Assembly (NCBI GenBank): GCA_963806185.1
Contig: CAWDXE010000001.1
Span: forward strand, 672,001-736,000
DNA: 64,000 nucleotides
Reading direction: 5' to 3'
Source of the DNA: an uncultured candidate division Zixibacteria bacterium
Lineage (GTDB): Bacteria; Zixibacteria; MSB-5A5; GN15; FEB-12
Under the pieces are notes generated by a model that was not told the origin of the DNA, made no database searches, and saw only the letters and a list, made by a program, of their open reading frames with translations. Below are positions 1 to 45,300 of the stretch, piece by piece. A program made the translations under genes and the position numbers. Within the stretch, counting starts at the first letter, position 1. Each line of letters begins with the position of its first letter.

Positions 1-2
1 TC

Positions 3-482
3 GTACCGGTCGATATTGTGGGCAATCTCAAATACGCACTCTTCGCCGCCGCCTGTCTTCTTCTTCTGTCCGGATTAGGGGCGAACTGGTATTCCCTCGA
101 CCGCGTGGCTAAGTATGGTCTGACCAACGCGGCATTGGTGGTGTTGGCGGTGCTTTGCGGTGCCGTTCTGCCCGCGGTATTGGTCCCCTGGTTACCCGGC
201 CGGGCGTTTTCGGTTAAGGGGGCATTCGCCGGAATTGTCCCGATGCTTGGCCTGGTGTTTCTCCACTGGCTGCACCCGGAAATCTTCCGCAGTTGGCTGA
301 ACTATGCGAGTTGGCTCCTCTTCTTCCCGGCACTATCCAGTTTCATTGGCATGAATTTCACGGGCAGCTCAACGTACACGTCGCTGTCGGGCGTCAAGAA
401 AGAGATGCGCGTCGCCCTGCCAGTGCAAATCGGCGCGGCCGTGTGCGGCTTGGTACTGTGGATCACAGGATTATTCGTATGA
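3..482 (+). CDS. hgcA: Mercury methylation corrinoid protein HgcA, C-terminal membrane part (5' end outside the window)
   Basis: Frame is open from the window edge. Several TM helices with PWLPGRAFSVKG and the HgcA C-terminal motif MNFTGSSTYTSLSGVKKEM. Its stop overlaps (ATGA) the start of an HgcB-type ferredoxin. The cap-helix motif is not in the window. Confidence 0.88.
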   Translation, partial: VPVDIVGNLKYALFAAACLLLLSGLGANWYSLDRVAKYGLTNAALVVLAVLCGAVLPAVLVPWLPGRAFSVKGAFAGIVPMLGLVFLHWLHPEIFRSWLNYASWLLFFPALSSFIGMNFTGSSTYTSLSGVKKEMRVALPVQIGAAVCGLVLWITGLFV

Positions 483-775
483 GAACAATGTATCTTCCTG
501 AAGTTGTCACTCTCGAATTCTATGTCGAGAAATGCAATGGGTGCGGCATGTGTGTTCAGGTTTGTCCGCACGCCGTCTTTGCAATCGAGAATAAACGAGC
601 AAAGCTCATAGATCGCGATGCCTGCATGGAATGTGGCGCCTGCGCCTTGAATTGCCCGGTAGGTGCGATTAGCGTTAGAGCGGGAGTCGGCTGTGCTGCG
701 GGTATTTTGAACGGAGCACTGCGTGGAACTGAACCCACTTGCGATTGCGGAGAGGACACGGGGAATTGCTGCTGA
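479..775 (+). CDS. hgcB: Mercury methylation ferredoxin HgcB (2x[4Fe-4S])
   Basis: CNGCGMCVQVCP and CMECGACALNCP (HgcB signature C(M/I)ECGAC), GVGCA, and Cys-rich tail CDCGEDTGNCC. ATG at 479 overlaps the hgcA stop; alternative start 488. Confidence 0.92.
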   Translation: MRTMYLPEVVTLEFYVEKCNGCGMCVQVCPHAVFAIENKRAKLIDRDACMECGACALNCPVGAISVRAGVGCAAGILNGALRGTEPTCDCGEDTGNCC

Positions 776-4480: not shown

Positions 4481-4915
4481 GTGCTATTTTCAAAAGGGTG
4501 TACCTACGCAATTCGAGCCGCCCTGCTTGTCTCGGTCAAGGAGACTAGTGACGGGCGGAAGTTCATCCCTATACGTGAGCTCGCGGACGAACTGGAACTC
4601 TCCTTCCATTTCCTCACCAAGATCATGCAGGTGCTCACCGAAGCACGGATTATGGAGTCGTTTCGCGGTCCGAACGGTGGCGTCGGTCTGGCCCGACCAG
4701 CCAGGGAGATCACTCTTGTGGATGTCATCGCGGCTGTGGACGGCATGGCCCTCTTCAAGGAGTGCGCCCTGGGACTCCCGGGTTGCGGTGAAAGAACCCC
4801 CTGCCCGCTCCACGTAGCCTGGGCAAAACGGCGCGAAGATCTGAAGCGGATGTTTGAAAAAACAACGCTGGCAAGCCTCGCGAAAGATTTGGATACCAAC
4901 TCATTTAGGAACTAA
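4481..4915 (+). CDS. Rrf2 family transcriptional regulator with a likely Fe-S-binding Cys motif
   Basis: YAIRA, SFRGPNGG, ITLVDVIAAVDG, and C-x6-C-x5-C-x2-H (CALGLPGCGERTPCPLH). GTG start; heads the nos operon. Confidence 0.92.
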   Translation: MLFSKGCTYAIRAALLVSVKETSDGRKFIPIRELADELELSFHFLTKIMQVLTEARIMESFRGPNGGVGLARPAREITLVDVIAAVDGMALFKECALGLPGCGERTPCPLHVAWAKRREDLKRMFEKTTLASLAKDLDTNSFRN

Positions 4916-5054
4916 TGGAAAGAGATGAGCGGGATGTTGTCGATACGATGCGTTCATATTTCGGATATCACACTCCGAAATCCGCTATTCATCCTCCAAC
5001 CCACGTTGCCAATCAATTCAGTCATTTCATCAAATAACCGAAGGATTATCTCTC

Positions 5055-5597
5055 ATGCGCAAGACCTTCACCTCGCGGGCAGTCATCATCCTGGCCTCCC
5101 TGGTTGGCTGCTGCATAATCGGCGGCTGTTCCTCCTCGCCCGAAACCGACGCCGAACGTCAGGCTCGATGGGCACATGGCAATCTGACAGAGTGGGAAAC
5201 GGAAAACGGCATCGGTCCGATATCGGCCGATGTACAACTCAGCGCAATTGACGCAGCCATGGCCGAACAGGGCAGGCAGCACTTCGCGCAGAAGTGCGCC
5301 ACTTGCCACTATCTCGATATGCGCAAAACCGGCCCGGCGCTGCGTGACGTTACCAAGCGTCGGAGTGCCGCCTACGTGCTCAACCAAGTGCAGAATCCTG
5401 AAACGATGGGCAAAGTGCATCCGGAAGGAAAGAAACTGGTGGCTCAGTATGCACAGTATATGACGATTCAGGGGATTACTCCGGAGATCGCCCGACAGCT
5501 ACTGGAATTTCTGCGCTCTGAGGCTGACAGGCCGGCCGTTGCCGCAGAGCAGCAGCCGGGTTTTGGAGTTCCCGCGCCACCTGCAACCGGCAAGTAA
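5055..5597 (+). CDS. Monoheme cytochrome c lipoprotein of the clade II nos cluster
   Basis: Lipoprotein-like signal ending IIGGC, heme motif CATCH, GPAL, distal Met. Immediately upstream of nosZ. Confidence 0.88.
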   Translation: MRKTFTSRAVIILASLVGCCIIGGCSSSPETDAERQARWAHGNLTEWETENGIGPISADVQLSAIDAAMAEQGRQHFAQKCATCHYLDMRKTGPALRDVTKRRSAAYVLNQVQNPETMGKVHPEGKKLVAQYAQYMTIQGITPEIARQLLEFLRSEADRPAVAAEQQPGFGVPAPPATGK

Positions 5598-5646
5598 GAA
5601 TCAGATTGCAGGAGAAAGATGTCATTTCCCGAGAGGAGGATATAAG

Positions 5647-7560
5647 ATGCTTCAAGGTAAACGACTGGTGCCGGCTGGATTTGTTCTTCTGCTGGCAATT
5701 GGGCTGGGTTCCGGCTGCTCCAGGAAACAGGAAGCGGGCGGTTTCGGCGACGCCGCCGCAAAAGTGTATGTGGCGCCGGGCAGCTACGACGAGTTCTATG
5801 CCTTCATGTCTGGTGGCTTCAGTGGTCAAGTCTCGGTGTATGGACTGCCGTCCGGAAGGCTCTTGAAGGTTATTCCGGTGTTTGGGCAGGATCCGGAGAA
5901 GGGCTACGGGTACTCCGAGGAAACAAAACCACTCCTCATGACCACGCACGGATTCGTTCCGTGGGATGATGCGCACCATCCTCAGCTGTCGATGACCGAT
6001 GGGCAGACGGATGGCCGATGGCTCTTCATCAATGGTAACAACACGCCGCGAATTGCACGAATCGATTTGACTACCTTCGAGACCGTTGAGACAATTGAAA
6101 TACCCAATTCCGGCGGTAATCACGGCTCACCGTACCTGACCCCCGGCACGGAGTATGTTGTCGCATCGACCCGCTTCAGCGTGCCCATCCCGCAGAAAGA
6201 CGTACCGATAAGTTCCTACAAGGAGAACTTCAAGGGAACTATCTCCTATGTCAAAGTGGATTCGGCCACCGGTCGAATGAAGATCGCGTTCCAGATTCTG
6301 GTTCCGGGAATCAACTATGACCTTTCGCGTTCCGGCAAGGGCCCGTCATATGGCTGGTCGTTCTTCACTTCCTATAATACAGAACAGGCCAATACCCAGC
6401 TTGAAGTGAACGCCTCGCAAAACGACAAGGACTTTGTGGCGGCTGTTAACTGGAAGCTGGCCGAACAGCTGATCGCGCAGGGAAAAGGGCAGATCTGGAA
6501 AGCACCGCATTATCACAACTATATGGACAGCGCGGATGTCGGTAAGAGCGAGGTGATCTCTGAAGTTCCGATGCTTGTCGCCAAGGACAACCCGGGACTG
6601 GTCTATTTTCTTCCGACGCCCAAGTCGCCGCACGGTTGTGATGTCGATCCGTCGGGAGAGTACATCGTGGCCTCCGGAAAACTGGCGGCCCTCATTCCGG
6701 TGCACTCCTTCAGCAAGTTTCAGACAGCGGTCGCAAACAAGGAATTCGACGGAGAATTCGACGGCATTCCGATTCTCAAATATGAATCGGTATTGGCCGG
6801 TGAGGTGAAGGAGCCTGGTCTCGGGCCGCTGCACACCGAGTTTGACGGCAAAGGTTTCGGTTATACCTCGATGTTCCTCTCTTCCGAAATCGTCAAGTGG
6901 AAGATCGGGACGTGGGAAGTGGTCGATCGCATACCGACCTATTACTCCATCGGGCACCTGATGATCCCCGGCGGCGACACGAAACAGCCGTACGGCAAGT
7001 ATGTCATCGCCCTCAACAAGATCACCAAGGATCGTTACCTGCCAACCGGTCCCGAGCTTGCACAGGCGGCGCAACTGATCGATATCAGCGGCGACAAGAT
7101 GAAACTGCTGCTCGATTTTCCGACCATTGGCGAGCCGCACTATGCGCAGGCCTGCCCAGCGTCACTTATCAAGGATAAGTCGGTTCGCTGGTATCCGATC
7201 GAAAATAACCACAATCCATACGCAATTCATGCTGAAGGAGAGGCGCGGGTGGAACGGGATGGACGGAACGTGCACGTCTATATAAGCACCATACGCACTC
7301 ACTTTGCCCCTGACAACATCGAGGGGGTCAAGGTCGGAGACAAGGTCTATTTCCACGTTACCAACCTGGAGCAGGACTGGGATGTGCCGCACGGCTTTGC
7401 GGTCATGGGCTCGAACAACTCGGAGTTGTTGATTATGCCCGGCCAGACACGGACTATCCTGTGGGAGCCTAAGGAAGTCGGCGTGATCCCGTTCTACTGC
7501 ACCGATTTCTGCTCCGCTCTGCATCAGGAAATGCAGGGTTGGATTCGCGTGTCGATTTGA
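5647..7560 (+). CDS. nosZ: Sec-dependent (clade II) nitrous-oxide reductase
   Basis: YAFMSGGFSGQ; CuZ His motifs DAHH, GNHG, SPHG, GPLH, EPH; CuA motif CTDFCSALHQEM. Signal ends in GSGC with no twin-Arg. Start ATG 5647 follows GAGGAGG. Confidence 0.97.
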   Translation: MLQGKRLVPAGFVLLLAIGLGSGCSRKQEAGGFGDAAAKVYVAPGSYDEFYAFMSGGFSGQVSVYGLPSGRLLKVIPVFGQDPEKGYGYSEETKPLLMTTHGFVPWDDAHHPQLSMTDGQTDGRWLFINGNNTPRIARIDLTTFETVETIEIPNSGGNHGSPYLTPGTEYVVASTRFSVPIPQKDVPISSYKENFKGTISYVKVDSATGRMKIAFQILVPGINYDLSRSGKGPSYGWSFFTSYNTEQANTQLEVNASQNDKDFVAAVNWKLAEQLIAQGKGQIWKAPHYHNYMDSADVGKSEVISEVPMLVAKDNPGLVYFLPTPKSPHGCDVDPSGEYIVASGKLAALIPVHSFSKFQTAVANKEFDGEFDGIPILKYESVLAGEVKEPGLGPLHTEFDGKGFGYTSMFLSSEIVKWKIGTWEVVDRIPTYYSIGHLMIPGGDTKQPYGKYVIALNKITKDRYLPTGPELAQAAQLIDISGDKMKLLLDFPTIGEPHYAQACPASLIKDKSVRWYPIENNHNPYAIHAEGEARVERDGRNVHVYISTIRTHFAPDNIEGVKVGDKVYFHVTNLEQDWDVPHGFAVMGSNNSELLIMPGQTRTILWEPKEVGVIPFYCTDFCSALHQEMQGWIRVSI

Positions 7561-7577
7561 CAACGAAAGAGATGTGA

Positions 7578-8738
7578 GTGAAACCTGACATTCCAATAGG
7601 CGATCCCGCAAATGCCGCGGGGTCGCTTGCCCGGTCGAACCCCCGTCATGACGGTGCGGGTCGGCGCCGGCGCATGCATCCCGGACTGCGAGTGCTGCTG
7701 GCTGTTGCTGCTCTGCTGCTGTCTCTCACCTACTTCTTTCCGCTTTGGGAGATATCGTTGGACGCTCCCCAGTATCCGGAGGGGCTCGGCCTGGAGATTT
7801 GGATCAATCAGATGCAGGGGCAACACCCGGGTGATCTGAACAAGATCAACAATTTGAATCATTATATAGGGATGAAGCACATCCAGCCGAAATCCATTCC
7901 GGAGCTGAAAATCATGCCCTGGATTATGCGTGGCGTGATGATTATTGGCCTCATAGCCGCAGCGACCGGACGACGATCGATTCTGATACTCTGGCTCCTC
8001 GTGTTCCTGGTGATGGCCATTGCGGGGCTCGTTGATTTCTATATGTGGGGGTATGATTACGGGCACAATCTCGACACGCAACATGCCATCATCAAGGTCC
8101 CGGGGATGAGCTATCAGCCCCCGTTGATCGGCTCCAAGAAATTACTGAATTTCAAGGCGATCTCACTTCCGGGTATCGGGGGATGGTTTGCCATCGCTTC
8201 GTTCGTCATTGGTGCTTTGATCTGGCTGTATGATCGGAGGCGATTCGGTCGCCGAGCTCGGGTCACAGCGGGTGCGATGGCTGGGGTAACAGTGGGTCTG
8301 ATGTTCCTGCTCGCACTCGGCTGCGGTACAACCGGACCGACGCCCATTCAGTATGGAGTAGACCAGTGCGATTACTGCAGGATGACCATCGCGGACCGGA
8401 GATTCGGCACAGAATTGATCACCGACAAAGGAAAGTCGCACAAATACGATTCTATCGAGTGTCTTGCCGCCGCCGAGTTGAAGTCGGCACAGGATGCAAA
8501 GAAGATACGCTCTCAGTGGGTGACCGACTTTGCACATCCGGGAACCTTCCTGGACGTGCGGGCCGCTACGTTCGTTGCCACCGAGCGGCAAAAGAGTCCC
8601 ATGGGCGTGGGACTAGTTGCGGTTGGCACAGACTCCGACGCCGCTGTTCTCATACAATCGGTGGGCGGAGCCGTGGTCGACTGGAACGGCGCAAAGCGCC
8701 TGGTGGCAGAAACATGGAAACTCTCGGAAGAAGAATGA
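7578..8738 (+). CDS. nosL: NosB-like membrane domain fused to a NosL copper chaperone domain
   Basis: N-part PLWEISLDAPQYPEGL...INNLNHYIGM...WGYDYGHNLD...YQPPLIG (clade II NosB-type). C-part CDYCRMTI...YDSIECL...SPMG (NosL). Confidence 0.85.
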   Translation: MKPDIPIGDPANAAGSLARSNPRHDGAGRRRRMHPGLRVLLAVAALLLSLTYFFPLWEISLDAPQYPEGLGLEIWINQMQGQHPGDLNKINNLNHYIGMKHIQPKSIPELKIMPWIMRGVMIIGLIAAATGRRSILILWLLVFLVMAIAGLVDFYMWGYDYGHNLDTQHAIIKVPGMSYQPPLIGSKKLLNFKAISLPGIGGWFAIASFVIGALIWLYDRRRFGRRARVTAGAMAGVTVGLMFLLALGCGTTGPTPIQYGVDQCDYCRMTIADRRFGTELITDKGKSHKYDSIECLAAAELKSAQDAKKIRSQWVTDFAHPGTFLDVRAATFVATERQKSPMGVGLVAVGTDSDAAVLIQSVGGAVVDWNGAKRLVAETWKLSEEE

Positions 8739-10027
8739 GGCGTCGGATGTCGCGCGATTCTCGGCTCTTCCCGCTGTCATTTCGCCGGCTGATTATCCTG
8801 TTCTGGATCAGCGGCGCAATAGAACTCCTGGGATCTTTCGACAGTAATGCGTCCACCATTCACGTGCAGCCTGCCGGTCATGTGCGATCGATCGCCGAAG
8901 CGATCGCCGGGGCCTCCCCAGGCGACACCATACGAGTCGCCGCCGGACGCTACGAGGAATTCGACCTGCACATCACCAAGCCGATGACGCTGCTTGGTCA
9001 GGCCTGGCCGGTCATTGATGCGAACGGACGAGGTCCTATTTTCGAGATAACCGCCCCGGGGGTGACTGTCTCGGGCTTTGAGTTACGCGGTGTGCCGGTG
9101 AGTTTTGTGAAAGAGTATGCCGCCATCCTTGTGAGCAACTCAGCCGATTGTGAAATTCGCGGCAATCGCTTCATTGACGATTTCTTTGCCGTCTATCTGG
9201 CAAAATCCCAGTTTTGCCGCATTCTTGACAATGCAATCACGGGATCAGCGAAGGAGCTCACCACAGCCGGCAATGGCATCCATCTCTGGAGTTGCTCCAA
9301 CATCGATATTACCAACAACGTGATTCGGGGACACCGTGACGGCATCTACTTCGAATTCGTGACCCACAGCGCGATAGTGAACAACTCGAGCGAAGACAAC
9401 CTCCGATACGGATTGCACTTCATGTTTTCGGATACCTGCCGGTACGAACGGAATCGCTTCATTCACAACGGGGCCGGCGTCGCCGTTATGTATACGGATT
9501 TCGTCGACATGATCGACAACACCTTCGAGGACAACTGGGGTGGCGCATCCTACGGCCTGCTCCTGAAGGATATCAAGGCCAGCCGGGTGCTTCACAATCA
9601 GTTCACGCGCAATTCAATCGGAATCCACATGGAAGGCTCGGATTACGTTCACATTGAAAGGAATCGTTTTACCGCCAACGGATGGGCCATAAAGATCATG
9701 GCCAACTGCGTGCAAAGTTCGATTGAACAGAATGACTTCATCGACAATTCCTTTCAGGTAGCGACCAACAGCCGTCACACCTTCAGCAGCTTCTCGGGCA
9801 ACTACTGGAGCCCGTACTGTGGCTTTGATCTGGATCGGGACGGGTATGGTGATGAGCCCTACCGTCCGGTAAGCCTTTACAGCTTATTGGTGGAGTCGGA
9901 TCCATCCACGCTCGTGTTAGTGCGAAGCCTGCTCATCGATGTTCTGAATCTGGCTGAACGAATGGTGCCGACCTTCACTCCGGAAGCGCTGGTTGATACC
10001 AAACCGCGCATGAGGCCCGTTACATGA
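8735..10027 (+). CDS. nosD: Nitrous oxide reductase maturation protein NosD
   Basis: Beta-helix repeats; GNGIHLW, RDGIYFE, RYGLHFMFS, GNYWS, DLDRDGYGD. ATG at 8735 overlaps the upstream stop (ATGA). Confidence 0.93.
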   Translation: MRRRMSRDSRLFPLSFRRLIILFWISGAIELLGSFDSNASTIHVQPAGHVRSIAEAIAGASPGDTIRVAAGRYEEFDLHITKPMTLLGQAWPVIDANGRGPIFEITAPGVTVSGFELRGVPVSFVKEYAAILVSNSADCEIRGNRFIDDFFAVYLAKSQFCRILDNAITGSAKELTTAGNGIHLWSCSNIDITNNVIRGHRDGIYFEFVTHSAIVNNSSEDNLRYGLHFMFSDTCRYERNRFIHNGAGVAVMYTDFVDMIDNTFEDNWGGASYGLLLKDIKASRVLHNQFTRNSIGIHMEGSDYVHIERNRFTANGWAIKIMANCVQSSIEQNDFIDNSFQVATNSRHTFSSFSGNYWSPYCGFDLDRDGYGDEPYRPVSLYSLLVESDPSTLVLVRSLLIDVLNLAERMVPTFTPEALVDTKPRMRPVT

Positions 10028-10734
10028 TTGAGATCAGTCGCCTGCATAAACGTTTCGGACGATTCGTGGCGCTCCATGAGATTGACCTTTTCATCGAACG
10101 CGGAAAGGTTACCGGAATTATCGGACCCAACGGTTCGGGCAAATCTACGTTGATGAAATCATTGCTTGGACTGGTGACGCCGACGTCGGGCACCATCACC
10201 ATTAATGGCTATCTCCTGAATGGTGCGAGTGATTACCGCCGGTCGTTGGGGTACGTACCACAATTGGCTCGCTTCCCCCTGGATCTGACGGGACGGGAGG
10301 TTATTGACGTAGTCAAGGGTCTGCGGGATGAGGGCGCTCGCTTGGAGTCGGAACTCATTCGCCTATTCGGCCTGGAGTCGGAGATCTCGAAGCGGGTGCG
10401 GGCAATGTCGGGTGGTACCCGCCAGAAGCTGAGTGTGGTACTCGCCTGCATGTATGACCCTGCTCTGCTGATCTGCGATGAGCCTACGGCCGGACTCGAT
10501 CCAATTGCGAACACCCGACTGAAAGATCTGTTGCTCTCTTTGAAAGAGAAGAAACGGACCGTGCTCATCACAACCCACATCATGAGCGATTTGGAAGAGG
10601 TCGCCGACAATGTCGTGGTTCTGCTCGAAGGTCGAGTTCGCTTTGCCGGTGCGATCCGAGAATTGAAGCTGGCGACCGATGAACCACGCCTCGAGGCAGC
10701 CGTAGCCCGCCTGCTGGAAAAGGGGGCCGCGTGA
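10024..10734 (+). CDS. nosF: ABC transporter ATP-binding protein NosF
   Basis: Walker A GPNGSGKST, signature MSGG, Walker B ICDEP. Lies between nosD and nosY. Confidence 0.92.
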   Translation: MIEISRLHKRFGRFVALHEIDLFIERGKVTGIIGPNGSGKSTLMKSLLGLVTPTSGTITINGYLLNGASDYRRSLGYVPQLARFPLDLTGREVIDVVKGLRDEGARLESELIRLFGLESEISKRVRAMSGGTRQKLSVVLACMYDPALLICDEPTAGLDPIANTRLKDLLLSLKEKKRTVLITTHIMSDLEEVADNVVVLLEGRVRFAGAIRELKLATDEPRLEAAVARLLEKGAA

Positions 10735-11522
10735 AATTGACTATGCACATGGCCTGGTACGCGATCCGGGACCTCATGCGTAATCGCTGGGGTCTGCTCT
10801 ACACGGCGTTCTTTGCGGTGCTCACCGTCGGCCTGTTCCAACTGCAGGCGCAATCGGCCAAGGTTGCCGTCAGCCTCATGAGTATCTGTCTTTTTCTCAT
10901 CCCGCTGGTCGCTTCAATATTCGGTACGATCTATTTCTACAATTCGCGTGAATTTGTAGAACTGGTATTGACTCAGCCGGTTGCTCGCAGAACTGTCTTT
11001 CTCGGTATGTTTCTGGGGTTGTCGTTCGCTCTGGTAGCCGGATTTGTTCTCGGCGTTGGTATTCCCACAGTTATATTGGGCGACTGGTCGAGTGGCCAGC
11101 TTGTCTCAATGACTCTTCTGTTAACGGTTGGTTCACTCCTGACCGTCATCTTCCTGGCTATCTCATTCTTGCTGGCGATCATTTTTGATGATCGGGGCAA
11201 GGGGCTGGCCGCAGTGCTGGCGGTCTGGCTCTTCACCGCTCTCGTGTACGACGGGCTGGTGCTATTAGCCGCCATGACTTTCTCGGATTATCCGCTCGAA
11301 ACGCCACTCCTGGTGGCCTCAATGGCCAATCCGATCGACCTGGCGCGGGTTACCTTGCTCATTCAGACGGATTGGGCCGCTCTCATGGGCTACACCGGAG
11401 CCGTCTTCAATCGCTTTTTCGGGACAGCTCTCGGAGTTACGATTGCAGCAATTTCGTTGGGACTCTGGACGGCGGTGCCGTTACTCGCGGGCATTCGGAA
11501 GTTTAGACTCAAAGATCTTTAG
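10731..11522 (+). CDS. nosY: ABC transporter permease NosY
   Basis: About six TM helices; YFYNSREFVELVLTQP, NPIDLAR, ALMGYTGA. Confidence 0.9.
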   Translation: MKLTMHMAWYAIRDLMRNRWGLLYTAFFAVLTVGLFQLQAQSAKVAVSLMSICLFLIPLVASIFGTIYFYNSREFVELVLTQPVARRTVFLGMFLGLSFALVAGFVLGVGIPTVILGDWSSGQLVSMTLLLTVGSLLTVIFLAISFLLAIIFDDRGKGLAAVLAVWLFTALVYDGLVLLAAMTFSDYPLETPLLVASMANPIDLARVTLLIQTDWAALMGYTGAVFNRFFGTALGVTIAAISLGLWTAVPLLAGIRKFRLKDL

Positions 11523-11593: not shown

Positions 11594-13096
11594 ATGCAAT
11601 TGATGCAGTCAGCGAAGAATATGATTAATCGGCTGAAGACGGCACATTCACAGAGCGTCGCATCACTCTACTTACTCACCTTCGGCCTTTTCACACTCGT
11701 CGGTGCCTGTGCGGCTCTGGCGATGCAGCTCGAGCTCTGGAGTGCTTCCTCAACATTGTTCAGTGGCCAGCTATTTGCGCGCCTGCTCACCCAGCACGGT
11801 ATGGTGATGACCTTCGTCGTACTCATACCCCTGATCCCGGCAGTGCTCGGCAACTTCATCTTGCCGTCAGCTGTGGGCTCGCGCGACATGGCCATGAGGA
11901 GATCAAACATAGCCGGTTGGTTTATGCATCTGGTCGGCGCCATTGCGATAGTTGTGGCAGTGGAGTTGGGTGCTTATGACACCGGCTGGACCATGAACAC
12001 GCCGCCCGGTTCGTCAAAGAGCTTCCAGTTGCTCATCGTCGGTCTTGGCCTGATTGCCGTGTCCACCCTTTTGCTCAACCTCGCGATTGCCAGAATCGTT
12101 CTGTCGCGCAAGTATCGCACCATACCTCTCGGTAAGCTTCCGGTACTGGCATGGTTCTTCCTGATCGGCTCTTTGGTTGTACTCATTGTCAGCCCGGTGC
12201 GGATCTTCACGCTGGCACTGTTGTCTCTTCACCAATTTGGCCACACGCCGGTCTTTTCGCTGCTGGACGCCGGCGGCATCATTCGGTATGAACACCTGTT
12301 CTGGGCTTATGCGGGACCGGCGACTTATGCCGCTGTCCTTCCGGCACTGGGCGTCACTTTTGAGGTTCTGGCCGCTTGTGCCGGCACTCCTTTGTTTGCC
12401 CGTCGCGTCGTCATCGTGGCTGCTGTCATATTGGGTCAGCTCGGCCTGGTTTCGTGGGGTCAGCACCTGCTTGTAACAACTGATTCGGAGCTGTTGGCAT
12501 TGACCGGCAGCCTGTTCGGTTTGCTTACTGCCGTTCCGACCTCACTGATACTCCTGAGCTGGTTGATGATGTTGTCTCGGGCAAGAAGTTGGCAGTCGGT
12601 TCCGCTGCTGATCACCTGGCTCCAGACTAGTCTCATAGCACTCGGCGGGCTCGCAGGGATCGTGCTTGCTATTCCTTCGACAGGTCTGACATTTCACAAT
12701 AGTTATTTGACAACCGGCCATCTCCACCTGGTCGCCCTTGGCCTTGTCCTTCTATCATTCCTGGCCGGTCTCATCCACTGGTGGCCTTCCTTCATGCAAA
12801 GGCGCATCGCGCCCGCGGCCGGACGGGCCGTCGCTATCACCATCGTGGTTGGGATCATGACGACTTATCTCCCCATGCTCATCAATGGTGTCGGGGGATC
12901 GCCGAAAGCGCTCAATGTCTATCCCGTTCAATATGAACCGATGCACATGGTATCGACCGCCGGTACGGTCATCCTTCTGGCGGGTCTGCTTGGCGCCGTA
13001 TGGCTTTTTGCTCGAGGCATTCTTGGTGGAAGATTGTCGACTCAGTCAGTAAGGACAGTCTCAAGTGGTGAAGTTGTCTTCCTCGATATACAGTAA
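11594..13096 (+). CDS. Heme-copper oxidase subunit I-like membrane protein with a degenerate binuclear centre
   Basis: About 12 TM helices; HGMVMTF..P...GNFILP...RDMA, GWT..PP, YEHLFW, HNSY..GHLH. GHPEVY appears as AGPATY and WAHH as WGQH. Confidence 0.85.
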   Translation: MQLMQSAKNMINRLKTAHSQSVASLYLLTFGLFTLVGACAALAMQLELWSASSTLFSGQLFARLLTQHGMVMTFVVLIPLIPAVLGNFILPSAVGSRDMAMRRSNIAGWFMHLVGAIAIVVAVELGAYDTGWTMNTPPGSSKSFQLLIVGLGLIAVSTLLLNLAIARIVLSRKYRTIPLGKLPVLAWFFLIGSLVVLIVSPVRIFTLALLSLHQFGHTPVFSLLDAGGIIRYEHLFWAYAGPATYAAVLPALGVTFEVLAACAGTPLFARRVVIVAAVILGQLGLVSWGQHLLVTTDSELLALTGSLFGLLTAVPTSLILLSWLMMLSRARSWQSVPLLITWLQTSLIALGGLAGIVLAIPSTGLTFHNSYLTTGHLHLVALGLVLLSFLAGLIHWWPSFMQRRIAPAAGRAVAITIVVGIMTTYLPMLINGVGGSPKALNVYPVQYEPMHMVSTAGTVILLAGLLGAVWLFARGILGGRLSTQSVRTVSSGEVVFLDIQ

Positions 13097-13119
13097 CCAA
13101 TAAAACAGGAGGAGTAGCG

Positions 13120-13740
13120 ATGAAGAAAGCATCCGGGCCCCGCACATCTCTCATCCAGGTTCTGGTAGAAGAACACCGACACATCAAGCTAGGCTTGTCC
13201 ATTCTCAACGCCATGCACAAACGCATAACAAGACGCCTTGCCGTCCCCCCGGCAGACCTCGCGACATTGGTCCGCTTCATAAGTGAGTACGCCGACAAGA
13301 TTCATCACCACGGCGAAGAGGAACTGCTGTTCCCGGCGCTGGAGCGGACGTCCAATCGGCAATTGAAGCAGATGGCGGGAAAACTGGGGACTCAACATCT
13401 CATGGGTCGATTATTTGTGAGTGAGATGAAGGATGCCCTCAGGGAGGCTCGGACCAATCGAAGAGGTTGGCGGAACTGCTTTCTGGAGAACGCCAGGGCG
13501 TATCACACACTGCTGACTATTCATATCTGCGATGAAAACAATATGTTCTTTCCGTTGGCCGAGAAAGCACTCAGTCGTGCGAAGGCGACTGTAGGGTCTA
13601 CTCCCGAGGCATTGGCTCCAAGTAAGAAGAGATGGGAAGCGCGTGTGGAGCGGCTGTACCAAAAGTACTGTCCAGGGGTCTCATCTCCCTGTGGCGGCGG
13701 GTCGTCGACGGCCAGCTGTGATTGCGAGAATCGAACCTAA
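13120..13740 (+). CDS. Hemerythrin (HHE cation-binding) domain protein with a Cys-rich tail
   Basis: EEHRHI, HHHGEEELLFP, QH..GR, HICDENNMFFP. Strong RBS AGGAGGAG. Confidence 0.88.
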   Translation: MKKASGPRTSLIQVLVEEHRHIKLGLSILNAMHKRITRRLAVPPADLATLVRFISEYADKIHHHGEEELLFPALERTSNRQLKQMAGKLGTQHLMGRLFVSEMKDALREARTNRRGWRNCFLENARAYHTLLTIHICDENNMFFPLAEKALSRAKATVGSTPEALAPSKKRWEARVERLYQKYCPGVSSPCGGGSSTASCDCENRT

Positions 13741-40301: not shown

Positions 40302-42303
40302 ACGACAGCTCCTTCAGTTTTTCAATCTCGTTACGCGTGCGACGGGCATAGGCCGCGATCTCAGAGTTGTTCGGCGCAACTTTGAGCGCCTTTTCCCATA
40401 TCGTCAGTGCCTCGCGCAGACGATTCTGCCCGTATAGGTCCACACCCACAAAGCGATATGCCTTTAAGAGGTACTCCCGCACCGATTGATAGCCGGGGGC
40501 GAGTCGTTCCACTTCTTCCCATGCCTCAATAGCCTGCGACAGGTCGCCCCGGTTGAAGGCGGTTTGGGCTTGATCATATGAATGTTGTACCTGCTTGAGA
40601 ACGTCGCGGCTCAGAGCGACCGCCTTAACGGTCGGCATCTTCAACCCCGATTGCAGGTTCTGGATTTCGTTTCGACAGGTCTTCTGGAGTTCGAGGCATC
40701 GTGCCTGGCCGGGGAACCGAACCAGCGCCGAGTCAAGCAGGTCTATGGAACGCTGATACTCCCTATTGACCATTTCCTTTTCCGCGGTCGCTTTGAAGCA
40801 CTCGAATTCCGCCTTCTTGAGCGCAACCTGAGCAAGCGCATTGTCGGGTGCCATGTTGTGCAGGGACTGAGCGGCTGTCAACGCCTGTATGGGGGCTCCG
40901 TAACTTATGAGGGAGTCGATCAACCAGACTCGCCGCTGAACAAATTCCTGCTGTCGAGCAACTTCGGCGCTCGCTTCAGCAGCTTGATGCGACATGTCCA
41001 TCGCCTCGGTCGAGGTCGAATCCACAGAAAGGGCCAGGCCGGCGAAATACCGGCATCCTGAGAAGTCGAGCGCCGCCAGATGGGCCCGCGCTGAGTCAAG
41101 ATGCGCGGCCAGCTCAATTCGTCGACTCGTTTGAAGAATCTGGGTGCGTACTCGTGCCGCCAGCATTGCGTACTCAGTAGTATCGATACCACTGTTGCGT
41201 GCAAGGAACAGGGCACGATCGAAGCTCGCGTCGGCGGCGGCCAGATCACCGGCGGAAAGGGCTCGTTTGCCCGATTCCAGAAGCTCGTTAGCCCGCTCCC
41301 CGTTCTTCTGGGTCAATCGTTCGCTCATGAGCCGATTGAAGGCAGCCTCTCGGCGCTCGGCACGAATGGAACGTCTTTCACTCACCGACTTGCCGATGCT
41401 CGTGGTCAGGGAAATCATGTGCAGTGCACCCAGCTCCCGATCCACCATAGCATAGTCAAAACTAATGCCGTTATACGAAATGCCGGCCCCACCGGAGAAC
41501 TTGTCTTCCTGAATACTGCCGCGGAGTTGCAGAATGTCGAAGAGTGAGAGTTCCAGTCCAAGAGATCCGCTGCCGGGAGTATTATCCCGTTTCGTGAGAC
41601 CACCGCTTATTTCCAGCGTTTGCCGATGATCCGGACTCATCAGCAACATACCGCTGAGCCCGGCTTGAAATTCAAACGGCGATTTGATCGACTCGTCGAC
41701 TAGGCGCATCGACGGCGCGATGATATTTCTTCCCACCAAAGTGAGACATATATCGTCGCACCAGCCGTACGGCGAGGGTATCTTTCTGGTGGCCGCTATG
41801 TCAAGGCCCGGCGTCGAGGTTGCTTTGTAGGTATCAAGCGAATGTGTTTCGATCGAGAACGTTGCACCCAGATCGAAAGAGCCGACCGACCGACCGTACG
41901 CCAACCGCAGTCCGAGGCGGCTGTCGGAGATTGAATCCAGCAGGAGATTCGATGCGTCGCGCTTCTCGATACCGTCGATGCCCAGTCGAGTGATCCCTAT
42001 GCCCAGCGATCCCCAATCCAGTGTGGGAAGAACAAGGCCGAGATACTGGTAAGTCACGTCAGAATCAAACAAGCGCGAGTGGAAACCCATAACCGTGTAC
42101 TTCTCTGCCCGGGCCAGACGGGCCGGATTCCAGAAGGGTGCGGTGGCATAGTCGCAAACCGCTACATCGGCGCCTCCGAGGGCCAAATCGCGCGCGCCGA
42201 CCCCAAACCCAAACGGCGACGCGGCGCCGCCGGTCTGCGCCAGAGTTCCGGTGCCGGCAAACAACAGCAAAAGCAAGCTGGCGAAAGTAAGAGACGTCTT
42301 CAT
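40291..42303 (-). CDS. PorV/FadL-like outer-membrane beta-barrel fused to a C-terminal helical TPR region
   Basis: Signal peptide; GVGARDLALGGA...WNPARLA (PorV-family N-motif); amphipathic strands to about aa 305, then TPR-like helices (AIEAWEEVERLAP, ALTIWEKALKVAPNN). Confidence 0.8.
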   Translation of the reverse strand: MKTSLTFASLLLLLFAGTGTLAQTGGAASPFGFGVGARDLALGGADVAVCDYATAPFWNPARLARAEKYTVMGFHSRLFDSDVTYQYLGLVLPTLDWGSLGIGITRLGIDGIEKRDASNLLLDSISDSRLGLRLAYGRSVGSFDLGATFSIETHSLDTYKATSTPGLDIAATRKIPSPYGWCDDICLTLVGRNIIAPSMRLVDESIKSPFEFQAGLSGMLLMSPDHRQTLEISGGLTKRDNTPGSGSLGLELSLFDILQLRGSIQEDKFSGGAGISYNGISFDYAMVDRELGALHMISLTTSIGKSVSERRSIRAERREAAFNRLMSERLTQKNGERANELLESGKRALSAGDLAAADASFDRALFLARNSGIDTTEYAMLAARVRTQILQTSRRIELAAHLDSARAHLAALDFSGCRYFAGLALSVDSTSTEAMDMSHQAAEASAEVARQQEFVQRRVWLIDSLISYGAPIQALTAAQSLHNMAPDNALAQVALKKAEFECFKATAEKEMVNREYQRSIDLLDSALVRFPGQARCLELQKTCRNEIQNLQSGLKMPTVKAVALSRDVLKQVQHSYDQAQTAFNRGDLSQAIEAWEEVERLAPGYQSVREYLLKAYRFVGVDLYGQNRLREALTIWEKALKVAPNNSEIAAYARRTRNEIEKLKELSYDE

Positions 42304-45300
42304 CGCACCACCGCAACCTTTCGCCTGAATGTCTCGGTCCGTCCCGAATCATAGGTCGCGATTATGCGACAGAAATAGACTCCGGGCACGACGGTTCGGC
42401 CGTCGCCGTTCATCCCGTTCCAGGTGTCACTCTGATAGGCACCAGCCGGGCGAAATGACTGATTGGAAATCCGAGAGACGGCGTCTCCGGTGATGGAGAA
42501 TATGTCTATGTCTACCATGGCATTCTCAGTCAGGACAAAGCCGATGGTTGTAACTTCCCCCCGCCCCGGGTTGAACGGATTGGGATAGTTCGTGAAGGAT
42601 GTCTCGAGTTCCGCCGCCACAATTGATATCTCACCGGCCGCAACGGGATACGTCGTGCCTGAGAGAACTGGATATACCGGCGTCTGCAGGCTCTTATCCA
42701 CAACGGTGATGAAGGACGAATCAAGAAAAGTAAGCACGATATTTCCGGGTTCGGCATCACCGGACAGATCGCAGGTCACGCGGATTGGCACACTCTCCCC
42801 GCGACTCATCGTTACGGGCGTCGACGCGATAATGGCAAGTGTATCGCCGGTCATCATGGTATCAGTGCCAATCTCTGCGCCGCCAATTTCCATGTGGAAT
42901 GCCGCCACAGACGCACTGATCGGACCGGCCGCGGAACCAGTTGAGACTCTGCGGCTCAGCGCAGCGGTCATTCCGCGAATTTCAATCTGCCCCAACGGAG
43001 AAGAAGATTGATACGCCAGTGTGCCCTCGAAAATGGTGACTTTGTGAGTTCCAGCGGGAGCCATTTGCACGGGTCTCACGGTTCGGACGGCAATTGGCCG
43101 ACCGGCCGGGAGTAATATAGACGTCGTGCCGGTCGTAAAGGGGAAGGTGGCAACACAACCGGCCGCCGCATTTGCCCCGACCGTTCGGCTCGGATCGCTC
43201 ATGTCATTGATGCTGAAGTCGGTCAGCCCGACTATGTGAAGGGCAAATGATCCGTAGGGCGCCTCGAGCCGGAAATCGCCCACCAGATCTATCTGAAGAC
43301 TATCGCCGGCCGACAGCACCAAACCGGAATCCGCCAACGTCAGGTCCATCGCCCCTCCCGGTGCCGGCACGATTTCACAGTCTCGAATTGCGCCACCATT
43401 GACGCTGACGCCCATTTTGTCGAATAATTGATCCGGATCGATTCCGCCGCCGCTGCCGTCCTCAATCTTCAGGTTCAGCCGGCTCAGTCGCACAGCCGAA
43501 TGTTGAGGCAAGGTGGGATACGTCACGCCAAGGGAGACCAGCGGCACCGCTCCGGCGCCACCGGCGATTGATGACGGCGCGATATCATCGAGGCAGATTG
43601 AGACCGGCTCGGCGGGCAACCGGAACGCTGACCAGTTTGATACGATCGGGAAGACATTGCCGCTCGCCAACGTAGTATCTGAGACAGCCAGCAGGGCCGA
43701 ACCGGTGTTCAAGTCCCGCACGGTAAACAGACTGCTATCGGCAATCCGGAGTTGGAATCCGGCCGCCGGAACTGATGGTCTGACGGAAACTGCAACTACG
43801 ATGGAATCGATCTCCTGTGCCGATAGATTCACGGGAGTGGATAATGGTATATCAATGTTTGACGAATCCTGAAACGCGAGTGTCACTTCACCGATGAGGT
43901 AGTTGTGTCGCCAGACAGTCAGCTTGCTGAAGAGATCTCCGGCCGGCAATCCGTTCCCGATTGAGTCAGTGACTTCCAGTGATACTTCAGTCAACTGCAC
44001 CGCGGAGCTTCCCGATTCGCCCCCATGTCTCACCAGCAATTTGAGAATGTTTGCGTCCTGCTGGCCGTTGTTGATTGTCGGCAAGGTGCAGGAAGCGGCT
44101 GAAACGGCAATCTGTTGAGACGGTTCGTCGATTCGCGTGGATGCGGTCCGCATGGGATACGTGACAGATTGTGCATTTGGAACCGTTTGTCCGGTGTTGG
44201 CATCAAGCAGCGGTATCCATGACGCACTGTCTACTGATATGCTGAAGTCAGGCGCGACAGTACTGGGGACAATATCGACGATCAAGAGGAGTGTTTGTAC
44301 GCCGCTCGGCCCAATTGACACCGGATGACTGAAGGCAAGCTGCACTGCTGATTCAGTTGGAACCGTCGTGAGCACCGAGAGAATTTCATATCCGGCCGCT
44401 ATCATCATCCGGCTGAAAACTGAGTTGGCTGGAACTGCGGCTCCCTGCCCATCGGCCACACGGAAACGCAGGTATTGAATCTCCATGGCCGCTACGGCCG
44501 TACTGGTGTCCGGATGGGCACATTCCAGGGTCATGGGAAAGATATAGCTCTGGCCCTTTGTTACCGCGGTGGGACTGGTATTGAGCAACCGCGGCGTGAC
44601 GGGAGATATCGCGCGTTGAATGCACGACGGAAGTGTTTGAATCAGGATTGAGGAGTCCACGGGTGCTCTTGAAACCGCCTGGAATGACCAGGATTCACGG
44701 CCTTCGCCGGTAGCTGTGAAATAGAAATGGCGGGTGATCGATTCGCCTGACGCCAGATTCACCGGGCCGTTCGAACTGCTATCCAGCCGCACGAGCGACG
44801 GATTCTCTATCTCCACCAGACTGGCGAACACGGAGTCAATCGGGCTGCCCGTGAGATTGGTGACGGTAAGGGGGACCTCGATCGATTGGCCCACAGAGTA
44901 CGTCTCCCGCATCGGTCCCAGCGAAACTTTCAATCCCGAAGTCGACACCGTGAACGTACCCGGCGCCAAGATTGACGAATCGATCGGACCGTCGTTGTCC
45001 GATTCAAAGTCACAGCCTGCTTGCGGAATCTCCAGCCGGATGGTGGCATTCGGCTCCGCCGAGATCGCAATGTCTCCTGCAATGAATAGTTGGGGCGGGG
45101 TTGACGAAACAAACAAGCCCAGGTCACTCAAGGACCACGTCCCCGCACCATAGGCGAATGAGCCCAGCATCGAATCACCCGCATCGAGCTGGTGATTGGT
45201 ATTGACGTCGTGCCACAGGGAAAGCTCCGCAATGGTCGTATTGTTGGCCGTCCCGAGATTGCTCACATATATATTGTGGAGCCAATCCGGCCGATCACCG

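What the first reader, a model, noticed from the sequence alone, without database searches (positions are those of the whole stretch)
3..775. hgcAB mercury-methylation genes in a probable Zixibacteria/FCB-type genome
Seen: HgcA C-terminal motif, translationally coupled to a ferredoxin with CMECGAC and terminal vicinal cysteines. Established: hgcAB are required for methylmercury production. Inference: other genes here point to an uncultured FCB-related host rather than a classical sulfate reducer, iron reducer or methanogen.
Basis: partly seen in the sequence, partly recalled or inferred. Interest (0 to 1): 0.7.

Follow-up and report, generated by a model that had tools for sequence, protein, structure and literature searches.

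The report
Mercury-methylation genes in arsenic-methylase's slot
This uncultured bacterium, likely one of the Zixibacteria, carries two intact, long-diverged copies of the known mercury-methylation genes hgcAB behind a cysteine-rich membrane gene pair that in other genomes sits in front of the arsenic-methylating gene arsM instead, and across the phylum hgcA and arsM seldom share a genome, an untested hint that HgcAB may stand in for ArsM.

Summary
Observation confirmed. Window 1-482 is the 3' end of an intact hgcA (385 aa, cap helix NVWCAAGK, NCBIfam 445 bits, cut-off 275). Window 479-775 is hgcB (127 bits, cut-off 99). TypA and the HgcA tree point to Zixibacteria. That much is published, and 48 of 285 genomes of the phylum carry hgcA.

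Three things go further. (1) hgcAB ends a five-gene unit: arsR, a membrane-anchored thioredoxin-fold protein without CxxC, a Cys-rich CcdA-fold protein, hgcA, hgcB, with a palindrome over the arsR start. (2) A second copy (68% DNA identity) ends an arsenic-resistance cluster on another contig; no other of the 285 genomes has two full-length copies. (3) The CcdA-fold gene precedes hgcA in 15 of 19 other genomes and arsM in 3; the partner changes at least three times on its tree. arsM is in 8 of 49 hgcA-positive and 157 of 236 hgcA-negative genomes.

Against a stand-in role: this genome has arsM too, and strain ND132 made no detectable methylarsenic. Best reading: a true mercury methylase in an arsenic-type operon with a likely thiol relay. 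Arsenic as natural substrate: about 20%.

The parts
1..482 (+). hgcA, 3' part (membrane domain); reading frame from base 3. The whole gene is G000:C1:671325-672482, 385 aa; its N-terminal C16-C17, corrinoid domain and cap helix NVWCAAGK (C1:671721-671744) lie upstream of the window. Also upstream and outside the window, same strand: predicted promoter and palindrome TTCGA-N6-TCGAA over the arsR start (C1:669598-669643); arsR-family repressor, 118 aa (C1:669636-669992); unnamed 198-aa membrane-anchored thioredoxin-fold protein without CxxC (C1:670009-670605); Cys-rich CcdA-fold membrane protein, 233 aa (C1:670611-671312). A second copy of the whole unit lies at C7:92208-95355.
   Evidence: NF040863 445.2 bits, cut-off 275; ArsR NF033788 60.8, cut-off 55; PF03599 45.8; PF02683 44.3
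479..775 (+). hgcB, 98 aa, two CX2CX2CX3CP motifs, C72, terminal C97-C98; its start overlaps the hgcA stop (ATGA at 479-482). A second ATG at 488 is a possible alternative start.
   Evidence: (NF040864 127.1 bits, cut-off 99)

Best explanation
The window holds an intact hgcA-hgcB pair, predicted to methylate mercury, at the end of a likely ArsR-repressed five-gene operon whose two middle genes likely form a cysteine relay that hands metal(loid) ions or their methylated products across the inner membrane. Core chemistry, taken from the characterised ND132 enzyme (PMC11588087, passages): HgcB's two [4Fe-4S] clusters reduce HgcA's cobalamin to Co(I); SAM methylates it; the cap-helix cysteine (C136 here) ligates cobalt; HgcB C72/C97/C98 (C73/C94/C95 in ND132) take part in passing the methyl group to Hg(II). 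Shown here: the genes, motifs, gene order, 5-16 nt gaps, the palindrome, the second copy and the swap of hgcA with arsM behind the same two genes. Inferred: co-transcription; release of ArsR from the palindrome on binding As(III) or a similar ion; the orientation of the thioredoxin-fold protein (N-terminal cysteines inside, fold outside); binding of the two middle proteins; and transport as their role. I put export or hand-over of the metal(loid) at about 0.35, electron transfer as in ordinary CcdA at about 0.3, and an arsenic role unrelated to HgcAB at about 0.3. The pair is accessory, not required.
For: Curated models passed; no other PF03599 gene, so no Wood-Ljungdahl corrinoid protein to confuse it with. 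Second full unit at C7:92208-95355, 68% DNA identity, HgcA 259/385 and HgcB 78/98 identical, while 87 of 136 four-fold sites differ, so both copies are likely kept by selection. Copy 2 follows arsD-arsA-acr3-arsC and arsP-like, arsF, arsG genes. CcdA-fold subfamily: 20 of 285 genomes; directly before hgcA in 15 of the 19 others, before arsM in 3 (one genus), at the end of an ars cluster in 1. In the best 80 of 328 metagenome loci the next gene is hgcA in 29 and arsM in 8 of 67 informative loci; 57 of 80 hold an hgc or ars gene; the unnamed partner is directly upstream in 51 of 64. Model matches CcdA 5vkv as the best hit (E 5.9e-3, probability 1.00); the partner matches thioredoxins but has no cysteine in the folded domain. 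Complex prediction: weak support, score 0.50 against best control 0.00, runs agree in at least 88% of contacts, partner pLDDT at least 78; the mark was reached by 116 of 157 solved and 2 of 215 mismatched pairs, but at 0.60 or under by only 18 of the 157 and by both mismatches. ArsG, a CcdA-like ars protein, is described as an organoarsenical efflux transporter (PMC9144182, passage). In ND132 hgcAB is under an arsenic-responsive ArsR (10.1101/2022.10.17.512643, passages).
Against: No activity, expression or binding data exist for this organism. The pair was not found next to hgcA in 33 of the 48 other hgcA-positive genomes of the phylum (single-protein query). The CcdA-fold match is above E 0.001 and the model's mean pLDDT is only 71.5. 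Among the cysteines only C36 is invariant in 24 aligned sequences. Four relatives fuse a SelT/W/H CxxU domain to the partner (two scanned), which fits electron transfer as well as transport. The metagenome loci were ranked by likeness to an hgcA-linked query and many are short, which favours hgcA and limits the count of 'both'. The copy-2 CcdA-fold gene has one frameshift; rpoB is broken into 11 pieces in this assembly, so a sequencing error is likely but not shown.
Confidence: 0.7

Rival explanations
1. HgcAB's natural job here is to methylate arsenic (or a similar metalloid) in place of ArsM; mercury methylation is a side reaction, and the two middle genes serve either methyltransferase.
For: arsM at E 1e-40 or better in 8 of 49 hgcA-positive and 157 of 236 hgcA-negative genomes. 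Within families 24.7 genomes with both were expected, 8 seen. Re-search with an ArsM protein found it in 0 of the 41 hgcA-only genomes and in 10 of 10 controls. By genus: arsM in 12 of 33 hgcA-positive against 68 of 97 others, p 8.5e-4 (counts read by hand). Four genera hold both an hgcA-only and an arsM-only genome. At least 3 hgcA/arsM changes on the CcdA-fold tree. Same direction in the class of a Phycisphaerales record: 1 of 6 against 91 of 155. Both enzymes use SAM (ArsM).
Against: This genome has an arsM (C1:1036025-1036927 as the longest frame; E 3.4e-84) plus two hgcAB; eight genomes in eight genera have both. In ND132 no mono- or dimethylarsenic was detected and the deletion strain was as resistant to As(III) as the wild type, though more sensitive to As(V). 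The second-class test is weak (p 0.085; 0.16 without the genome I chose as centre), and 2 of 5 hand-picked hgcA genomes of other phyla have arsM. Kin are not independent; no species tree was available. Full-length acr3 is also somewhat rarer in hgcA-only genomes (22 of 41 against 30 of 39, p 0.036).
Confidence: 0.2
2. The link is positional only: hgcAB travels as a cassette that lands in ars clusters and borrows their repressor; the CcdA-fold pair serves arsenic defence on its own, and the scarcity of arsM reflects habitat or loss of ars genes in hgcA carriers.
For: The pair also stands before acr3, arsD, arsA, arsP and unknown genes. The HgcA tree rejects a clade of this genome's copies with three of its own family's HgcAs (p-AU 3.6e-50; group named after a first tree was seen), so the cassette moves or is lost unevenly. 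All six hgcA genomes of family f3 also lack a full-length acr3. hgcAB beside ars genes, arsM included, is already reported (PMC7438021, passages).
Against: 22 of the 41 hgcA-only genomes keep a full-length acr3. The five-gene order and the palindrome persist across many families at about 35-65% protein identity. The subfamily is in 16 of 48 hgcA-positive but 3 of 236 hgcA-negative other genomes.
Confidence: 0.35
3. The CcdA-fold protein is an ordinary electron carrier that passes reducing power from a cytoplasmic thioredoxin or the fused CxxU domain to extracytoplasmic thiols.
For: PF02683 passed, CcdA best fold match, cysteines at the ends of two membrane helices; CxxU domain fusions in relatives.
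Against: The partner's thioredoxin fold lacks CxxC; extra vicinal cysteines resemble the CC/CU motifs of HgcA and HgcB; 57 of 80 loci hold Hg or As genes.
Confidence: 0.3
4. The two copies are an assembly or binning artefact.
For: The assembly has many indel errors and is 82% complete.
Against: The copies are only 68% identical, lie well inside contigs of over 1 Mb with matching 4-mer profiles, and fall in one small clade; contamination 0.86%.
Confidence: 0.03

Closest known systems
HgcA/HgcB of Pseudodesulfovibrio mercurii ND132 (NF040863, NF040864; PMC11588087, passages)
   Same: Cap helix with the cobalt-binding cysteine, corrinoid domain plus membrane domain, adjacent two-cluster ferredoxin with the three extra cysteines.
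   Different: N-terminal motif is Cys-Cys, not the PCUGP selenocysteine form (10.1101/2022.07.06.499078, passages), although selA and selD are present; two diverged copies; two extra genes between arsR and hgcA.
arsR2-hgcA-hgcB of ND132 (10.1101/2022.10.17.512643; passages and sections 19, 20)
   Same: A cysteine-rich ArsR-family gene heads the unit.
   Different: In ND132 arsR2 is directly upstream and no other ars genes are near; here two genes intervene and copy 2 ends a large ars cluster. I did not align this ArsR with ArsR2.
hgcAB flanked by acr3, arsC, arsR, arsM in diverse methylators (PMC7438021, passages)
   Same: Physical link of hgcAB with arsenic genes.
   Different: The passages read report closeness to arsM; they do not report a CcdA-fold pair, a swap of hgcA with arsM in one slot, or scarcity of arsM in hgcA genomes.
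hgcAB-bearing Zixibacteria from deep-sea sediment (PMC12484752, abstract and passages)
   Same: Same phylum, same motifs.
   Different: That work proposes MttB as methyl source; a word search of its main text found no 'arsR' and no 'two copies'.
ArsF/ArsG of the ArsEFG organoarsenical system (NF040494, NF040495; role of ArsG from PMC9144182, passage; original paper not held)
   Same: A membrane-anchored thioredoxin-like protein followed by a CcdA-like membrane protein inside ars clusters.
   Different: Scores far below the ArsG cut-off, separate clade; the partner lacks ArsF's CxxC and matches ArsF at only 11% probability. True arsF and arsG lie just upstream of copy 2.
CcdA membrane electron transporter (PDB 5vkv; PF02683)
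   Same: Predicted fold and cysteine-bearing helices.
   Different: Doubled cysteines, a partner without CxxC, and Hg/As neighbours. How CcdA works is recalled; the paper was not held.

Membership tests
HgcA | Cap helix N(V/I)WCA(A/G)GK | tested here: met
   NVWCAAGK at residues 133-140 (copy 1) and 132-139 (copy 2)
HgcA | Corrinoid-binding domain and score over the NF040863 cut-off | tested here: met
   PF03599 45.8 bits; NF040863 445.2 against 275; copy 2 449.5
HgcA | C-terminal domain of five membrane helices | tested here: inconclusive
   A simple hydropathy scan gave 4 segments over threshold in copy 1 and 3 in copy 2; the model match covers the whole domain
HgcA | Separate hgcB directly downstream; not the fused HgcAB-like form | tested here: met
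   ATGA overlap; NF043039 192.9 against cut-off 285
HgcA | N-terminal CU or CC motif | tested here: met
   C16-C17 in both copies; motif described in 10.1101/2022.07.06.499078
HgcB | Two CX2CX2CX3CP motifs, the C73-equivalent and terminal CC; NF040864 cut-off | tested here: met
   Residues 19-30, 49-60, C72, C97-C98; 127.1 against 99
HgcAB | Methylmercury formation | not testable with these tools
   Needs expression or culture
ArsR/SmtB repressor | Score over NF033788 cut-off | tested here: met
   60.8 against 55
ND132 ArsR2 type | Four-cysteine site (C47, C49, C86, C88 in ND132) | not tested
   No alignment with ArsR2 was made; this protein has cysteines at 34-36, 42, 50, 83, 89, 90
CcdA / DsbD membrane domain | PF02683 cut-off and fold | tested here: met
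   44.3 against 27.1; best fold match 5vkv, E 5.9e-3, TM 0.50
CcdA electron-transfer system | Partner thioredoxin with CxxC (recalled feature) | tested here: not met
   The adjacent thioredoxin-fold domain (residues 93-179) has no cysteine; a partner elsewhere in the genome was not sought
ArsG | NF040495 cut-off 200; same clade | tested here: not met
   34.1 bits; separate clade
ArsF | NF040494 match and CxxC | tested here: not met
   No family hit; profile probability 10.9%
Zixibacteria (host) | Marker-gene affinity | tested here: met
   7 of 7 organism-named TypA homologues; HgcA clade with a named record; 16S found but not classified

The most novel reading that the evidence does not exclude
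HgcAB is by nature a B12-dependent arsenic or metalloid methyltransferase that replaces ArsM. The Cys-rich CcdA-fold protein and its thioredoxin-fold partner are the shared membrane carrier for substrate or product of either enzyme, and so a named candidate for how Hg(II) enters or methylmercury leaves these methylators.
Probability: 0.2. Interest if true: 0.85.

Novelty: new variant of a known kind. Interest (0 to 1): 0.5.

Why it matters
The finding as flagged is ordinary: hgcAB is published for Zixibacteria and is in about one in six genomes of the phylum. What adds value bears on two open questions: what HgcAB is for, and how mercury reaches it and methylmercury leaves. A single slot that holds either hgcAB or arsM, and a strong shortage of genomes with both, gives a direct prediction that can be tested with the enzyme already purified from ND132. 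The two middle genes are concrete candidates for a carrier. If arsenic drives this operon, arsenic levels would help predict methylmercury formation in sediments. I found no paper that pairs hgcA with ccdA (0), with 'cytochrome c biogenesis' (0) or with dsbD beyond one review with single mentions, and none on hgcA/arsM exclusion or two hgcA copies. The library lacks most subscription papers, and supplements were not read.

Tried and rejected
Fused HgcAB-like protein or Wood-Ljungdahl corrinoid subunit: rejected. Chimera or duplicated assembly: rejected. ArsG or ArsF membership of the middle genes: rejected. A link with the nosZ cluster about 4.8 kb downstream: no nosZ, and no matching alcohol dehydrogenase, in any fetched locus, though many loci reach only 1.5-8 kb; treated as chance neighbourhood. 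The two copies as exact sisters: SH-aLRT 93 in the quick tree but 83/46 in the careful tree of 40 of those 102 rows, so duplication within this lineage and two gains from close kin both remain open. Other multi-copy genomes: G073's second copy is a 99% identical, broken piece beside a transposase-like gene; G167's matches are contig-end fragments in a bin with 8% contamination. merA: two matches under the cut-off. merB: none, but no control genome rang. Atlas look-ups gave only ferredoxin/HgcB and DsbD_TM-type clusters. RpoB was unusable as a marker because of frameshifts; the TypA search in 5 named Zixibacteria genomes hit 2, at 75-76%. Paper search on copy number returned unrelated papers. 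Two papers were not held. Rows left out: ten duplicate loci and two identical HgcA rows before the tree; 13 of 80 metagenome loci with under 300 bases downstream; G281 (spurious, 18.9 bits) dropped and G180 (partial) kept as hgcA-positive; the acr3 control used 39 of the 157 arsM-only genomes, chosen by me from the same families.

Full report
Observation. The window is G000:C1:672001-736000 of a 3.65-Mb assembly in 8 contigs. Bases 3-482 encode the membrane end of HgcA and 479-775 a 98-aa ferredoxin, joined by an ATGA overlap. The whole hgcA (C1:671325-672482, 385 aa) is unbroken and has the cap helix NVWCAAGK at residues 133-140. It scores 445.2 bits on NF040863 (cut-off 275) and only 192.9 on the fused HgcAB-like model (cut-off 285). 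HgcB scores 127.1 on NF040864 (cut-off 99) and has both cluster motifs, C72 and the terminal C97-C98.

Host. Of the 120 best TypA homologues, 7 name an organism and all 7 are Zixibacteria. In the careful HgcA tree of 40 rows both copies lie in a 100/97 clade with three other genomes of the phylum and one named Zixibacteria record. No dsrA was found and the only PF03599 genes are the two hgcA, but the genome is 82% complete. It has 23 frames with three or more heme motifs, so metal reduction stays possible. hgcA passes the cut-off in 48 of 285 genomes of the phylum, and hgcAB-bearing Zixibacteria are published (PMC12484752; abstract and passages). FCB-group hgcA is noted in PMC10083202 (passages). 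The host is therefore no surprise.

The unit. Upstream, outside the window, lie three genes on the same strand with gaps of 16, 5 and 12 bases. The first is an ArsR-family repressor. The second, 198 aa, has no family; it has two N-terminal cysteine pairs, one hydrophobic helix and a predicted thioredoxin fold with no cysteine in it. The third, 233 aa, passes PF02683; its model matches CcdA (5vkv) best, weakly by E-value, and it has C35-C36 and C151/C155-C156. It is not ArsG (34 bits against 200; separate clade in a quick tree that warned of long branches at the root), and the second is not ArsF. The palindrome TTCGA-N6-TCGAA covers the arsR start codon in 19 of 25 related starts. Read by eye from the same output, codon 2 is TCG in 24 of 25 and TTGAC stands 35-40 bases upstream in 24 of 25. 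This reads as a self-repressed, leaderless operon; that is inference. A complex prediction for the two middle proteins gave weak support: 0.50 against a best control of 0.00, runs agreeing in at least 88% of contacts, partner pLDDT at least 78. In the tool's test 116 of 157 solved and 2 of 215 mismatched pairs reached the mark, but at 0.60 or under only 18 of the 157 and both mismatches.

Two copies. A second unit lies at C7:92208-95355, 68-70% identical in DNA. HgcA is 259/385 and HgcB 78/98 identical, while 87 of 136 four-fold sites differ: an old split with both copies kept intact. Copy 2 ends a cluster with arsD, arsA, acr3, arsC, an arsP-like permease, two arsF-like genes (one scanned) and arsG (arsA, acr3 and arsC labelled by eye). 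Its CcdA-fold gene has one frameshift; rpoB is in 11 pieces in this assembly, so an indel error is likely. No other of the 285 genomes has two full-length copies, though a named Aminicenantes record gave two hgcA loci. Whether the copies are exact sisters is unsettled (93; 83/46). A clade with three HgcAs of its own family is rejected (p-AU 3.6e-50, group named after a first tree), which points to transfer within the phylum or uneven loss.

One slot, two methyltransferases. The CcdA-fold subfamily is in 20 of 285 genomes. In 15 of the 19 others it is directly before hgcA; in 3 (one genus) the next gene is arsM (329-343 bits, cut-off 263); in 1 it ends an ars cluster. In the best 80 of 328 metagenome loci the next gene is hgcA in 29 and arsM in 8 of 67 informative loci, the rest acr3 4, arsD 4, an unknown family 4, arsR 2, arsP 1, arsA 1, a second partner gene 1, unassigned 13. 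hgcA or hgcB is in 33 loci, arsM in 13, both in none. These loci are short, partly redundant (61 clusters at 90%) and ranked by likeness to an hgcA-linked query. On the subfamily's tree the partner changes between hgcA and arsM at least 3 times. Four relatives fuse a CxxU domain to the thioredoxin-fold protein; the two scanned match SelT/W/H models.

Genome-wide shortage of both. arsM is in 8 of 49 hgcA-positive and 157 of 236 hgcA-negative genomes; within families 24.7 with both were expected and 8 seen. Because one search scored only 8 candidates a genome, I re-searched: 0 of 41 hgcA-only genomes, 10 of 10 controls. By genus it is 12 of 33 against 68 of 97. Kin are not independent and no species tree was at hand, so the p-values overstate. 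As a control, full-length acr3 is in 22 of 41 hgcA-only and 30 of 39 arsM-only genomes: part of the effect may be a general loss of ars genes, but not all. In a second class (that of a Phycisphaerales record) arsM-like genes are in 1 of 6 hgcA genomes and 91 of 155 others, p 0.085, or 0.16 without the genome chosen as centre; 2 of 5 hand-picked hgcA genomes from other phyla have arsM. This genome itself has arsM.

How it likely works. Established for ND132 (PMC11588087, passages): HgcB reduces HgcA's cobalamin, SAM methylates it, the cap-helix cysteine binds cobalt, and three HgcB cysteines are needed for mercury methylation. All these residues are present, so mercury methylation is likely (about 0.9). 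ND132's hgcAB is under an arsenic-responsive ArsR (10.1101/2022.10.17.512643, passages), which fits the operator here (about 0.8). For the middle pair I favour a cysteine relay that moves the ion or its methylated product across the membrane, by analogy with ArsG (PMC9144182, passage) and because the partner lacks CxxC; electron transfer and an independent arsenic role are close rivals. The pair was not found beside hgcA in 33 of 48 other hgcA genomes, so it is accessory.

Against the boldest reading. In ND132 no mono- or dimethylarsenic was detected, about 15% of added As(III) went to an unidentified, probably thio-arsenic compound, and the deletion strain was equally resistant to As(III) but more sensitive to As(V) (sections 19 and 20 read whole). 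PMC7438021 reports hgcAB close to arsM in some genomes (passages). I put arsenic as natural substrate at 0.2.

Verdict. The flagged pair is a new member of a known family in a phylum already known to carry it. The five-gene unit with its CcdA-fold pair, the two diverged copies and the hgcA/arsM pattern make it a new variant; I did not find these in print (listings only, supplements unseen, most subscription papers not held). Interest 0.5.

Noticed in passing
window 4481-11522: Rrf2 regulator, small cytochrome c and a Sec-dependent (clade II) nosZ (931.7 bits, cut-off 625), followed by genes that look like nosL/D/F/Y by eye. N2O is recalled to inactivate Co(I) corrinoids, but nosZ was not beside hgcAB in any fetched locus.
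   Followed up: partly
window 11594-13740: Heme-copper oxidase subunit I-like gene below all cut-offs (best 277 against 671), standing without obvious subunit II, then a hemerythrin-like gene (label by eye).
   Followed up: partly
G000:C4:315388-319144: rpoB is broken into 11 matches in shifting frames, a sign of uncorrected indel errors in this assembly.
   Followed up: yes
G000:C1 near 7515; C7 near 303430-305265: Very large multiheme frames with 42, 31 and 20 CxxCH motifs; 23 frames with 3 or more.
   Followed up: no
L117:5135-6157, L105:6023-7072, L118, L164: The thioredoxin-fold partner carries an N-terminal SelT/W/H-type domain with CxxU (in-frame TGA), a likely selenoprotein fusion that ordinary gene calls would cut.
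   Followed up: partly
L102:3560-6135 (G073:C14): A 99% identical, truncated and frameshifted duplicate of hgcA with hgcB beside a transposase-like gene: likely insertion-sequence-linked copying of hgcAB.
   Followed up: partly
L034:982-1719, L135, L136, L138, L139: An unnamed, lipoprotein-like family of about 245 aa with repeated units and a near-terminal CC follows the CcdA-fold gene, once before hgcA and once (two copies) before arsM; no NCBIfam hit at 1e-8.
   Followed up: no
L070:2496-12252: A record labelled Cyanobacteriota holds hgcAB (cap helix variant NVWCAAAK) inside a full ars cluster; its HgcA groups with Bacillota, so misbinning or transfer is possible.
   Followed up: no
L030 and L069: Two closely related hgcAB loci in one named Aminicenantes assembly.
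   Followed up: no
G000:C4:103376-104707; C1:545430-546374: selA and selD are present, yet both HgcA copies use Cys-Cys rather than Cys-Sec at the N-terminus.
   Followed up: partly
G000:C1:667419-667922 and many other places: A roughly 70-residue C-terminal domain (dockerin-like, label recalled) recurs dozens of times on seven contigs.
   Followed up: no
window 42300-50261: A 2653-aa secreted-looking reading frame, not examined.
   Followed up: no
G000:C1:668194-669327: A DUF3541 gene lies divergently upstream of the arsR promoter.
   Followed up: no
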